Assembly (NCBI RefSeq): GCF_009914755.1
Contig: NC_060930.1
Length of the DNA: 64,000 nucleotides
Reading direction: 5' to 3' (one strand)
From: the human T2T-CHM13v2.0 reference genome, Homo sapiens
Shown: piece by piece, positions 42,175 through 43,899 of the stretch
Layout: each line of letters begins with the position of its first letter
Position numbering within the stretch: the stretch's first letter is position 1
Notes under the pieces: model-generated
Databases searched by the model: none
What the model was told of the DNA's origin: nothing
Seen by the model: only the letters and a program-made list of their open reading frames with translations
Program-made: the position numbers and the translations under genes

Positions 42175-43794
42175 ATGACTAGCTGTTAAGGACACTTTGA
42201 ACATGAGATATCAAGTAAACATATTTTAAAAGCATTATTTACATGTGAAATGAAATTAATAGGAAAATCAAGTTCAAGTTATTAAGCTCACATCTTCAAT
42301 ATAATATGAATAATCAGAAAAAAAACTTTCACTTTTTCTCATGAAAACAAATGACCCATTATGTTTAGAAGAGTGAGTCTAAAAATAAAAAGAACAAAAC
42401 AAACATGTAACTGTACTTTTAGTGTCTACAATAGTGTGGCTGCAGTATGCATGTATAATTTGAAAACAAGAAAAACAAAAAAAAAGTCCAAATTTGGCTA
42501 GCATTATAAAATTACAAACTGTTTAGGACTCACTCCCTTCTTTCAGATAAAGGATCCATCAGATTTTTCACTGAATATCAGCATGCAGAAGCCTTTATTC
42601 TGAAATTAAAATTACTCTTTCATTAAAAGGCTTAATTTTAAATTTGACATTTAAGAGAGATTACTTATAAACAAAACTGCACATATACAAGTGAGTTAAA
42701 ACAAAACCGGATTCAGTGCTTTAAAAATGGTATCTACTTTTGAACCTACCACTTTAAATGTTTGTTTTTTTCTGTTTTTGAGATGGAGTTTCCCTCTTGT
42801 CACCCAGGCTGGAGTGCAATGGCGCGATCTCAGCTCACTGTAAGCCCAGGTTCAAGAGATTCTCCCGCCTCAGCCTTCCAAGTAGCTGGGACTACAGGTG
42901 CCCGGCACCACACCCGGCTAATTTTTTATTTTTAGTAGACACGGGGTTTCACCATGTTGGTCAGGCTGGTCTCAAACTCCTGACCTGAGGTGATCCACCC
43001 GCCTCAGCCTCCCAAAGTGCTGGGATTACAGGCATGAGCCACCGCACCCAGCCAAACATTTATGTTTTTACTACTTGGGATATAAATATAAAAGAAACAT
43101 AAAAGCAATCTGTAAATATCTGGAATTACATATACTGGTTTGTAATATCCCACTAAACTTCCTTATGTATATAAATTATATAATATTAAACCTAGCTATA
43201 ATGGAAATTAGCTATATAAAAATAAGTAACTTTTTTTAGGAGGTTGTTCACTGGTTTAATTAAAAAAATAACAAACAGAAAAAGCTCAAGATACACAATA
43301 TAAAACGAGACTGGCAATTACCTCAATGTCACTTGATCTTGAACCTTGACCTTTACTCTTTAAGGCTTGCAAGATGGACTTTATAAGAGACGCAGAACCA
43401 ACAAAATCAGACTTGGCTTTGACTCTGGAACTCTGAGTAAATGTAGGAAAGCCGAAGTCTCAACCTGGTGTTGGCTTTGTCTTTTGCTTGATAAAGACTT
43501 CCCCTCTTCCAGGTCTTTATATCTGTGTCCACCCTCCCTCTTTACTCCTTGATGCTTGAACTTTAGGTGCCTTTTGTCTCGCCTGCTGGGTTTATGCTTG
43601 GATTCTAGCTAACAGGTTGGTTCAAACTGGGGGGTGCTTGCCAGCTACTGTGGACTGCTTTAGATCTTCTGAGATAAAGAAATAAACACATTTAATTAGG
43701 CAATATTAATCTCATAACATATGCTACTGAATACATATATGTATAAGCACGCATATACAGTATATTCACATGCACACAATAAAATAAAGGATAT
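42175..43794 (-). other. SRSF12: U12-type (minor spliceosome) intron 2 of SRSF12 with AT-AT termini
   Basis: 5' site ATATCCTTT (43794-43786), branch site TCCTTAAC (42192-42185), 3' end ...AGTCAT|. The joined exons restore RNP1 RGFAYVQF in frame. Confidence 0.9.
43322..43668 (-). other. SRSF12: Candidate poison (PTC) exon nested in the U12 intron, with U2-type sites
   Basis: cctaat...gtttatttctttatctcag|AAG acceptor and GAG|gtaatt donor. 347 nt of purine-rich non-repeat sequence in AT-rich flanks; stops in all three frames. Confidence 0.75.
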
Positions 43795-43899
43795 TGAACA
43801 TAAGCAAATCCTCTTGGGCGGCGAGTGTAGAAGTCAAGTGGAATGTAAACGTCTACTATAGGGCCATATCGACCAAACTCACGGCGCAAGTCCTCAGGC
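43795..43899 (-). CDS. SRSF12: SRSF12 coding exon 2 (RRM, RNP1)
   Basis: cttcag|G CCT GAG GAC...= [35 protein letters not shown]. 105 nt; ends CA|atatcctt. Confidence 0.95.

What the first reader, a model, noticed from the sequence alone, without database searches (positions are those of the whole stretch)
42175..43899. Major-versus-minor spliceosome switch: U2-type poison exon nested inside the U12 intron of SRSF12
Seen: exon 2 has a U2 acceptor but a U12 donor (ATATCCTTT). Exon 3 has a U12 branch/acceptor (TCCTTAAC) but a U2 donor. Between them is a 347-nt segment (43668-43322) with a good U2 acceptor (cctaat...tttctttatctcag) and donor (GAG|gtaatt). Stops in all three frames fall within 20 nt (TAG 43611, TAG 43607, TAA 43594). 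Established: U12 donors do not normally join U2 acceptors, and the paralog SRSF10 is regulated by competition between a minor intron and an unproductive exon with major sites. Inference: this exon is mutually exclusive with the exon2-exon3 junction. Exon1 joined to it encodes a 42-aa product [42 protein letters not shown], which would make SRSF12 output a sensor of minor-spliceosome activity. An alternative route is a cryptic U2 donor CAT|gtgaat at 43769 (101-nt mini-intron). The exon may already be annotated as an NMD isoform; the mechanism in SRSF12 is the part worth testing.
Basis: partly seen in the sequence, partly recalled or inferred. Interest (0 to 1): 0.88.

Follow-up and report, generated by a model that had tools for sequence, protein, structure and literature searches.

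The report
SRSF12 poison exon inside minor intron
A stop-codon-bearing alternative exon inside the rare minor-type intron of the human splicing-factor gene SRSF12 is real and already annotated, and it is the evolutionary twin of the self-regulating exon of its sister gene SRSF10, so it probably tunes SRSF12 output in a similar, already described way.

Summary
SRSF12 intron 2 (43794-42175, 1620 nt) starts ATATCCTTT. TCCTTAAC lies 10 nt before exon 3. The intron ends AT, so it is an AT-AT U12 intron. Inside it lies a 347-nt segment (43668-43322) with a U2 acceptor, a GAG|GTAATT donor and stops in all frames. RefSeq already lists it as an exon of other transcripts (hub table).

New here: this exon is the paralogue of SRSF10 exon 3, the unproductive exon of the published SRSF10 minor/major switch (Meinke 2020). 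Alignment z is about 10 against shuffles, and four flanking-intron controls give z -1.4 to 0.8.

The module is re-wired. SRSF10's strong downstream major donor and its GA-rich enhancer (exon 3 nt 17-60) have no counterpart. The SRSF12 exon has its own U2 donor, and exon 3 has annotated AG acceptors at 42182 and 42194. That gives an all-U2 unproductive track beside the U12 productive track.

A published table flags exon-2 skipping and a cryptic exon in this intron in testis (Olthof 2019). Sensing of minor-spliceosome activity remains an inference.

Verdict: new member of a known kind, moderate interest.

The parts
54465..54529 (-). SRSF12 exon 1 coding part; U2 donor CAG|GTGAAC (GT at 54464)
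   Evidence: hub annotation
43795..43899 (-). Exon 2 (productive): U2-type AG acceptor upstream, U12-type donor downstream
   Evidence: 92 of 105 nt identical to SRSF10 exon 2
42175..43794 (-). Intron 2, a U12-type AT-AT intron of 1620 nt
   Evidence: listed as a minor intron in Olthof 2019 supplement, scores 97.35 (5'ss) and 87.75 (branch site)
43786..43794 (-). U12 5' splice site ATATCCTTT
43764..43772 (-).
   Evidence: 6 of 9 U1 matches, best of 8 GT sites; would leave a 101-nt mini-intron
43729..43737 (-). TAT|GTATTC at the same +60 offset as SRSF10's strong major donor TAT|GTAAGT; degenerate here
   Evidence: 4 of 9 against 7 of 9; mini-intron would be 66 nt; the surrounding similarity is not significant (z -0.2)
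43669..43700 (-). U2-type 3' splice region of the poison exon: CCTAATT (likely branch site), pyrimidine tract, CTCAG
   Evidence: the 40 nt upstream align to the SRSF10 exon 3 acceptor region with z 4.1
43322..43668 (-). Poison exon, 347 nt, stops in all three frames; annotated alternative acceptors at 43665 and 43432; paralogue of SRSF10 exon 3
   Evidence: hub annotation
43605..43607 (-). In-frame TAG when the exon follows exon 1 or exon 2; 283 nt before the exon's 3' junction, so nonsense-mediated decay is predicted
43473..43484 (-). AAAGACAAA, the SRSF10 binding consensus as tabulated in PMC9022966, overlapping a 10-nt block AGACAAAGCC identical in SRSF10 exon 3
43498..43550 (-). Purine-rich stretch of the exon, aligned with GA-rich sequence of SRSF10 exon 3 (CTGGAAG block at 43512-43506)
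   Evidence: exon purine fraction 0.57 against 0.43 and 0.48 in the flanking intron
43345..43381 (-). Best conserved stretch near the exon's 3' end; 39 aligned columns, 87% identical to SRSF10 exon 3; includes CTTAAAGAG and TAAAGGTCAA
   Evidence: (E 9e-06)
43316..43321 (-). U2 donor GTAATT of the poison exon (GAG|GTAATT)
   Evidence: 7 of 9; hub annotation, three exon variants end at 43322
43287..43294 (-). GTATCTTG, placed by the aligner opposite SRSF10 exon 3's unused minor donor GTATCCTA; possible relic, weak
   Evidence: not significant on its own (z 0.5)
42534..42599 (-). Second annotated U2-flanked cassette exon in the same intron (ttcag|AATAAA ... GGA|GTGAGT), 66 nt
   Evidence: hub annotation; no similarity to the one SRSF10 stretch compared, rc 3100-3265 (z 0.2)
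42185..42192 (-). U12 branch site TCCTTAAC
42175..42196 (-). Annotated U2-type AG acceptors that extend exon 3 by 8 nt (start 42182) or 20 nt (start 42194); landing sites for the U2 donors inside the intron
   Evidence: hub annotation; (caaag|TGTCCT, taacag|CTAGTC)
42071..42174 (-). Exon 3 (productive start at 42174 after the U12 3' end)
   Evidence: 84 of 104 nt identical to SRSF10 exon 4

Best explanation
The segment 43668-43322 is a genuine stop-bearing cassette exon inside the AT-AT U12-type intron 2 of SRSF12. It descends from the same ancestral element as exon 3 of SRSF10, the unproductive exon of the published SRSF10 minor/major switch.

It most likely acts as an unproductive-splicing valve built from two parallel tracks.
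- Productive track: exon 1 joins exon 2 by a U2 intron, then exon 2 joins exon 3 at 42174 by the minor spliceosome.
- Unproductive track, all GT-AG: exon 1 joins the poison exon, optionally the 66-nt exon 42599-42534 follows, then exon 3 is entered at the AG acceptors 42182 or 42194.

Exon 2 offers only a U12 donor and the poison exon only a U2 acceptor, 126 nt apart. The two therefore behave as mutually exclusive choices for the exon 1 donor. Poorer definition of exon 2 by U11/U12 should shift output to the stop-bearing form, which is predicted to undergo nonsense-mediated decay. Conserved purine-rich blocks, including AGACAAAGCC, suggest input from SRSF10 or SRSF12 protein.

Shown: the anatomy, the annotation and the paralogy.
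Inferred: the route, the decay, and the response to the minor spliceosome or to SR proteins.
For: - Splice-site anatomy and reading frames were read directly.
- RefSeq lists 43322-43668, 43322-43665 and 43322-43432 as exons. It also lists exon 3 variants starting at 42182 and 42194, and both follow AG (hub table).
- Paralogy with SRSF10 exon 3. The global score is 144 against 9.4 +/- 13.6 in 500 dinucleotide shuffles (max 51). The local score is 51 against 21.2 +/- 2.7 (max 34).
- Among 189 windows across 9.8 kb of SRSF10, the best is exactly exon 3 (142; the best non-overlapping one scores 31).
- The five comparison alignments give z -0.2, 0.8, -1.4, 0.2 and 0.5. The acceptor region gives z 4.1.
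- blastn finds 39 nt at 87% identity, E 9e-06.
- The stop lies 283 nt before the exon's 3' junction.
- Meinke 2020 (sections 5 and 6 read) shows that SRSF10 exon 3 inclusion is autoregulated. It also shows that RNPC3 knock-down lowers productive SRSF10 mRNA.
- Olthof 2019 Table S7 (passages) flags this intron in testis for CAT3 (upstream exon skipped), CAT9 (cryptic exon) and CAT8 (extension of the downstream exon). It flags CAT6 and CAT7 in cortex and testis.
Against: - No junction coordinates or read counts were seen, so the route into the exon is not established. The candidates are exon 1, the cryptic donor at 43769, or AT-AG splicing from exon 2.
- All Olthof values are an index of 1, meaning no canonical reads were counted. 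That looks technical (AT-AT junction), so levels are unknown.
- Two functional parts of the SRSF10 module are absent. The strong downstream major donor has decayed (4 of 9 matches at the same offset). The GA-rich enhancer at exon 3 nt 17-60 falls in a gap of the alignment.
- Conservation rests on one paralogue pair. No cross-species data could be obtained.
- Olthof's list marks SRSF12 'HumanOnly'. This leaves open whether the mouse gene keeps the arrangement.
- SRSF12 was left out of Meinke's analysis for low expression. It is below 1.4 in the Olthof 2021 table.
Confidence: 0.7

Rival explanations
1. SRSF10-style route. The poison exon is entered from exon 2 through a downstream major donor (CAT|GTGAAT at 43769). 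Exon 2 is kept and extended by 25 nt, and the competition is between two 5' splice sites as in SRSF10. The stop would then be TAA 43662.
For: SRSF10 works this way. The site at 43769 is the best of 8 GT sites and equals the constitutive exon 1 donor in U1 matches (6 of 9). Olthof Table S7 flags a cryptic 5' splice site (CAT6) in cortex and testis.
Against: No annotated exon 2 variant ends at 43770 (hub table). The site lacks both G at -1 and G at +5. The site at the SRSF10-equivalent offset has decayed (4 of 9, 66-nt mini-intron). CAT3 (upstream exon skipped) is also flagged.
Confidence: 0.25
2. Decaying relic. The exon is a leftover of the ancestral SRSF10/12 module. It is spliced in at noise level in SRSF12 and has no regulatory role today.
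For: The downstream major donor and the nt 17-60 enhancer are lost, and the minor-donor relic is degenerate. SRSF12 is expressed at a low level and in few tissues.
Against: All other intron sequence between the paralogues is randomised (z -1.4 to 0.8). The exon keeps z about 10 and its acceptor region 4.1. That needs long purifying selection in the SRSF12 lineage. Its splice sites are strong and annotated with three acceptor variants.
Confidence: 0.2
3. Alternative terminal exon. As in SRSF10 exon 3, transcripts that enter the exon end by polyadenylation just downstream. They would give a stable short RNA rather than a decay substrate.
For: The SRSF10 exon 3 isoform uses a poly(A) site in exon 3. 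ATTAAA sits at 43260-43255, 62 nt past the exon's donor.
Against: All three annotated exon variants end at the donor 43322, and none runs on (hub table). The donor matches U1 at 7 of 9 positions. AG acceptors for it are annotated at exon 3.
Confidence: 0.1
4. Hybrid AT-AG splicing. The minor spliceosome joins exon 2's ATATCC donor directly to the poison exon's AG acceptor.
For: AT-AG U12-type introns exist, 11 human cases in Sheth 2006 Table 2. The frame would be the same as for exon 1 to poison exon.
Against: No U12 branch motif lies at a working distance. The nearest likeness, TCTTTATC, puts its A 6 nt from the acceptor, and CCTAAT lies 27 nt away. The acceptor region looks like a U2 site and is conserved with the U2-spliced SRSF10 site.
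Confidence: 0.07

Closest known systems
SRSF10 exon 2/3/4 minor-major splice-site switch with autoregulation (Meinke et al. 2020, eLife, PMC7244321; sections 5 and 6 read)
   Same: Paralogous gene. A U12 intron sits at the same codon between the RRM exons, with the same ATATCCTTT donor and a CCTTAAC branch site. An unproductive exon with a U2 acceptor lies inside the minor intron and is sequence-homologous (z about 10). Purine-rich content and an AGACAAAGCC block are shared.
   Different: - SRSF10 has a strong major donor (TAT|GTAAGT) 60 nt past the minor donor. SRSF12 has only weak GT sites there.
- The SRSF10 enhancer at exon 3 nt 17-60 has no counterpart.
- SRSF10 exon 3 ends in a poly(A) site and an unused minor donor. 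The SRSF12 exon is a true cassette with a U2 donor, and U2 acceptors are annotated at exon 3.
- The intron ends AT-AT instead of AT-AC.
- The gap from exon 2 to the unproductive exon is 126 nt instead of 439 nt.
- No experiments exist for SRSF12.
[quoted passage not shown]
   Same: A cassette exon with stops in an SR gene, the stop more than 50 nt before a downstream junction, and non-coding sequence conserved far beyond intron background.
   Different: It sits inside a U12 intron, so inclusion needs a change of spliceosome and not only of exon choice. Sensitivity to nonsense-mediated decay and autoregulation have not been tested for SRSF12.
Mutually exclusive exons enforced by spliceosome incompatibility (named as a mechanism in PMC7797038; the JNK/MAPK8-10 example is recalled; Olthof 2019 names MAP kinases among genes with upstream-exon skipping at minor introns)
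   Same: Two neighbouring alternative exons are separated by a short stretch bounded by a U12 donor and a U2 acceptor. Neither spliceosome can remove that stretch.
   Different: Here one of the two exons is non-coding and poisonous, rather than an alternative coding version. Exclusive use has not been measured.

Membership tests
U12-type (minor) intron | 5' splice site matching RTATCCTT at the exon border | tested here: met
   ATATCCTTT at 43794-43786, directly after exon 2. Olthof 2019 supplement score 97.35.
U12-type (minor) intron | Branch site TCCTTAAC close to the 3' end | tested here: met
   TCCTTAAC at 42192-42185, 10 nt before exon 3. Olthof score 87.75.
U12-type (minor) intron | Terminal dinucleotides AT-AC or GT-AG | tested here: not met
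   The termini are AT-AT. This is a known non-canonical U12 subtype, 6 human cases in Sheth 2006 Table 2, so membership stands.
SRSF10-type minor/major switch | Unproductive exon with a U2 acceptor inside the minor intron, homologous to SRSF10 exon 3 | tested here: met
   Global z 9.9 and local z 11. Best of 189 SRSF10 windows. Acceptor region z 4.1.
SRSF10-type minor/major switch | Competing strong major 5' splice site just downstream of the minor one in exon 2 | tested here: not met
   The same offset (+60) holds TAT|GTATTC, 4 of 9 U1 matches, with a 66-nt mini-intron. The best alternative, CAT|GTGAAT at +25, scores 6 of 9 and is not annotated.
SRSF10-type minor/major switch | GA-rich SRSF10-dependent enhancer at nt 17-60 of the unproductive exon | tested here: not met
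   The AAAGAGAAAG stretch of SRSF10 falls in an alignment gap, and the SRSF12 sequence there is C-rich. Other purine-rich blocks and AAAGACAAA (43484-43476) exist further in. Their function is untested.
SRSF10-type minor/major switch | Polyadenylation within or after the unproductive exon, and an unused minor donor at its end | tested here: inconclusive
   ATTAAA lies at 43260 and GTATCTTG at 43294. No annotated end is there, and the local similarity gives z 0.5.
SRSF10-type minor/major switch | Productive mRNA falls when the minor spliceosome is depleted; inclusion is driven by the gene's own protein | not testable with these tools
   No data were found. SRSF12 was omitted from Meinke 2020 and appears only at low expression in the Olthof 2021 supplement.
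Poison cassette exon (splicing coupled to nonsense-mediated decay) | Spliced-in exon with both splice sites used | tested here: met
   Three RefSeq exon variants share the donor at 43322 (hub table). Olthof Table S7 flags a cryptic exon in this intron in testis.
Poison cassette exon (splicing coupled to nonsense-mediated decay) | Premature stop more than 50 nt upstream of a later exon junction | tested here: met
   The stop lies 283 nt (from exon 1 or exon 2) or 338 nt (from the 43769 donor) before the junction at 43322.
Poison cassette exon (splicing coupled to nonsense-mediated decay) | Isoform stabilised when decay is blocked; conserved across species | not testable with these tools
   No RNA-seq and no vertebrate genomes are on hand. 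Only the paralogue comparison could be made.
Mutually exclusive exons by spliceosome incompatibility | The stretch between the two exons has a U12 donor and a U2 acceptor | tested here: met
   43794-43669 (126 nt) starts ATATCCTTT and ends in a pyrimidine tract plus CAG. CCTAAT lies 27 nt upstream.
Mutually exclusive exons by spliceosome incompatibility | Transcripts carry one exon or the other, not both | not testable with these tools
   The hub table gives exons, not their combinations. Olthof CAT3 in testis is compatible but carries no coordinates.

The most novel reading that the evidence does not exclude
SRSF10 and SRSF12 have kept one shared non-coding regulatory exon since their duplication. 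SRSF12 has re-wired it from a contest between two donors ending in a poly(A) site into a pair of mutually exclusive exons enforced by spliceosome incompatibility. That pair comes with a complete all-U2 bypass track (exon 1 > poison exon > AG acceptors of exon 3). The conserved AGACAAAGCC and purine-rich blocks would be common binding sites for both proteins. SRSF10 levels and minor-spliceosome activity would then jointly gate SRSF12 in testis and brain, as a paralogue cross-regulation circuit.
Probability: 0.3. Interest if true: 0.6.

Novelty: new member of a known kind. Interest (0 to 1): 0.4.

Why it matters
Coupling SR-protein output to the minor spliceosome is so far documented for one gene, SRSF10. 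If its only close paralogue keeps the homologous exon with different wiring, there is a natural comparison. It can show which parts of the module are essential (the U12 intron, the U2 acceptor, the purine-rich core) and which can be exchanged (competing donor, poly(A) site, first enhancer). It would also add SRSF12, a testis- and brain-enriched splicing repressor, to the genes whose dosage may shift in minor-spliceosome diseases. The practical gain is a well-defined set of junctions and mutations to test. The conceptual gain is modest, because the principle is already published.

Tried and rejected
- One MAFFT alignment from exon 2 through the poison exon mis-paired the exons, because the intervening intron is 126 nt in SRSF12 and 439 nt in SRSF10. 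I re-aligned the exons alone.
- A whole-genome DNA search with the exon plus flanks found only itself. So it is single-copy and not a repeat. The tool's first look is too coarse to find the SRSF10 paralogue, so this says nothing about homology.
- The idea that GTATCTTG at 43294 is a conserved relic of SRSF10 exon 3's minor donor is not significant on its own (z 0.5). I kept it only as a remark.
- The idea that TAT|GTA at +60 is a conserved remnant of the SRSF10 major donor fails too. The surrounding 113 nt give z -0.2, and the match lies in TA-rich sequence.
- The second cassette exon 42599-42534 shows no similarity to SRSF10 (z 0.2).
- Rfam gives 0 matches in 41700-44000.
- The single motifs RTATCCTT, TCCTTAAC and AAAGACAAA are not enriched window-wide.
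- Reviews that mention SRSF12 with poison exons do so only as 'SRSF1-SRSF12'. The SRSF10 review does not mention SRSF12 at all.
- Searches for a specific description of this exon or of a U12 switch in SRSF12 found none. Supplements of preprints and papers that are not held could still contain one.
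Full report
OBSERVATION

I read the SRSF12 strand (minus) directly and recomputed every number by script.

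Exon 2 (43899-43795) follows an ordinary AG acceptor. It is followed by ATATCCTTT, a full match to the AT-type U12 donor. TCCTTAAC lies at 42192-42185, 10 nt before exon 3. One refinement: the intron ends ...GTCAT|ATTTG, so its termini are AT-AT, not AT-AC, and its length is 1620 nt. SRSF10 has AT-AC at the same place. AT-AT is a known rare U12 subtype, with 6 human cases in Table 2 of Sheth 2006 (passage seen).

The 347-nt segment 43668-43322 is preceded by cctaatt...tttctttatctcag and followed by GAG|GTAATT. Earlier ones also exist (TAA 43662, TAG 43647, TGA 43624). The longest stop-free stretch in the segment is 75 codons.

Its stop lies 283 nt before the segment's 3' junction. CAT|GTGAAT with GT at 43769 is present.

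The single motifs are not enriched in the window. Their weight comes from sitting exactly at annotated exon borders.

SURROUNDINGS

The hub's RefSeq table lists 43322-43668, 43322-43665 and 43322-43432 as exons of other SRSF12 transcripts. The segment is therefore an annotated exon with three acceptors and one donor.

The table also lists a second small exon in the same intron, 42534-42599. I checked its sites: ttcag|AATAAA and GGA|GTGAGT.

Two longer versions of exon 3 are listed too, starting at 42182 and 42194. Both starts follow AG (taacag|CTAGTC, caaag|TGTCCT).

These AG acceptors matter. A GT donor inside the intron cannot use exon 3's U12-type 3' end, but it can use them. The intron thus carries a complete all-GT-AG path beside the U12 path.

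WHAT THE EXON IS

I found SRSF10 in the same genome with exon 2 as query and fetched 9.8 kb of it (locus L007, gene on the minus strand). tblastn with the SRSF12 protein placed its exons.

In reverse-complement coordinates:
- the minor donor is at 1661;
- the strong major donor TAT|GTAAGT is at 1721, 60 nt further on;
- exon 3 starts at 2100;
- a GTATCCTA minor donor lies at 2463;
- exon 4 starts at 5297.

This matches the description in Meinke 2020 (section 5 read).

A blastn of the SRSF12 region against this locus gave only the coding exons, Alu matches, and one 39-nt hit. That hit is 87% identical (E 9e-06) and joins the 3' part of the SRSF12 segment (43381-43345) to SRSF10 exon 3.

Aligning the two exons shows homology along their whole length.
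- The global score is 144 against 9.4 +/- 13.6 for 500 dinucleotide shuffles (maximum 51).
- The local score is 51 against 21.2 +/- 2.7 (maximum 34).
- Among 189 windows tiled over the 9.8 kb, the best partner is exactly exon 3 (score 142). The best window that does not overlap it scores 31.

Scored the same way (300 shuffles each), other regions show no similarity:
- intron after the minor donor, z -0.2;
- intron after the exon, z 0.8;
- intron before exon 3, z -1.4;
- the second small exon, z 0.2.

The 40 nt before the acceptor give z 4.1. Raw percent identity is uninformative with these gap costs, because the comparison alignments reach 66-74%.

Everything else in the intron has been randomised since the duplication. 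The retained similarity therefore argues for long purifying selection on this non-coding exon in both genes.

CONSERVED AND NOT CONSERVED

Conserved:
- CCTAATT, a likely U2 branch site, about 26-27 nt before the acceptor;
- CTCAG at the acceptor;
- the exon start;
- CTGGAAG within purine-rich sequence;
- AGACAAAGCC (43482-43473);
- CTTAAAGAG plus TAAAGGTCAA near the 3' end.

In SRSF12 the AGACAAAGCC block is part of AAAGACAAA. A review table gives that sequence as an SRSF10 binding consensus (PMC9022966, passage). It occurs once in the exon and 5 times in the whole window on both strands, against 1.8 expected. This is a single motif found after the fact.

Not conserved:
- SRSF10's major donor. 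At the same +60 offset SRSF12 has TAT|GTATTC (4 of 9 U1 matches against 7 of 9), and the mini-intron would be only 66 nt.
- SRSF10's mapped enhancer at exon 3 nt 17-60. Its AAAGAGAAAG stretch falls in an alignment gap, opposite C-rich SRSF12 sequence.
- The exon's end. SRSF10 has a poly(A) site and an unused minor donor. SRSF12 has a U2 donor 28 nt before a GTATCTTG that the aligner places opposite GTATCCTA, but that local match is not significant (z 0.5).

LITERATURE

Meinke 2020 (eLife, PMC7244321; sections 5 and 6 and passages read) established the SRSF10 mechanism.
- The minor donor leads to exon 4 and to protein.
- The downstream major donor leads to exon 3, a stop and a poly(A) site.
- SRSF10 promotes exon 3 through the GA-rich enhancer.
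- RNPC3 knock-down lowers the productive mRNA.
- Srsf12 appears once in the paper: 'omitted' for low expression.

Olthof 2019 (BMC Genomics, PMC6717393; main-text passages; supplement passages) lists the SRSF12 intron as a minor intron.
- The scores are 97.35 and 87.75, and the entry is labelled 'HumanOnly'.
- Expression is 8.5 in cerebral cortex and 28.9 in testis, and below 0.7 in the six other tissues.
- Table S7 flags CAT6 and CAT7 (alternative 5' and 3' sites) in cortex and testis.

These flags fit the all-U2 track. But the table gives no coordinates, and every index is 1. An index of 1 means no canonical reads were counted. I suspect this is a technical effect of the AT-AT junction, so I take the flags as evidence of existence only. 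I did not see the figure that defines the categories.

The Olthof 2021 supplement has only a low expression row for SRSF12.

Five full-text searches found no paper that describes this exon, its homology to SRSF10 exon 3, or a minor/major switch in SRSF12. Reviews say only that SR genes 'SRSF1-SRSF12' carry poison exons. The SRSF10 review never mentions SRSF12. Leclair 2020 is not held and may bear on this.

MECHANISM

Best reading (0.7): there are two parallel tracks.
- Productive: exon 1 to exon 2 by U2 splicing, then exon 2 to exon 3 at 42174 by U12 splicing.
- Unproductive: exon 1 to the poison exon, optionally 42599-42534, then exon 3 at 42182 or 42194, all by U2 splicing.

Exon 2 has only a U12 donor, and the poison exon, 126 nt away, has only a U2 acceptor. 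Neither spliceosome should remove the stretch between them. The two exons are therefore alternative partners of the exon 1 donor. 'Spliceosome incompatibility' is a named mechanism for mutually exclusive exons (passage). The JNK example is recalled, not checked.

Weaker definition of exon 2 by the U11/U12 snRNP would favour the poison exon. The stop lies 283 nt before the next junction, which predicts nonsense-mediated decay. The anatomy, the annotation and the paralogy are shown. The route, the decay and any response to the minor spliceosome or to SR proteins are inferred.

Rivals:
- An SRSF10-style route from the weak donor at 43769 (0.25).
- A relic spliced at noise level (0.2). The selective retention of similarity argues against it.
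- A terminal exon using the ATTAAA at 43260 (0.1). No annotated end supports it.
- AT-AG splicing by the minor spliceosome (0.07). There is no branch motif at a working distance.

VERDICT

The exon is already annotated and the principle is published for the paralogue. What is new is the demonstrated homology and the different wiring. This is a new member of a known kind, with interest 0.4.

Noticed in passing
window 42175-42176 (-): The SRSF12 minor intron ends in AT (AT-AT termini), while SRSF10 has AT-AC at the same position. The spacing from TCCTTAAC to the exon is 10 nt in SRSF12 and 9 nt in SRSF10. The AT-AT junction may explain why a published pipeline counted no canonical junction reads.
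   Followed up: partly
window 42534-42780 (-): The annotated long form of the second intronic exon starts at 42780, inside the A-rich tail of a sense-oriented Alu (about 43053-42769), with no AG before it. It looks like a transcript start or a truncated model, not a splice acceptor.
   Followed up: no
window 54022-54046 (-): This 25-nt annotated exon has no AG upstream and ends CTG|GTGAGA, so it is an alternative first exon. It contains an ATG at 54041.
   Followed up: no
window 43255-43260 and 43691-43696 (-): Two ATTAAA hexamers. One lies 62 nt downstream of the poison exon's donor, a possible poly(A) signal echoing SRSF10 exon 3. The other lies within the branch-site region CCTAATTAAA.
   Followed up: no
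window 43332-43349 (-): Three TCAAG copies spaced 7 and 6 nt apart, just before the poison exon's donor. SRSF10 exon 3 has a looser NNAAG series at the aligned place.
   Followed up: no
L003-L006 (G000 contigs C9, C4, C14, C18): Four further matches to exon 2 (79-83% identity) stop within 2 nt of the exon's end. They are probably processed copies of SRSF10 or SRSF12.
   Followed up: no
Olthof 2019 supplement file 1: SRSF12 is labelled 'HumanOnly' among minor-intron genes, while SRSF10 is 'Both'. Either mouse Srsf12 lacks a scorable minor intron or its annotation differed.
   Followed up: no
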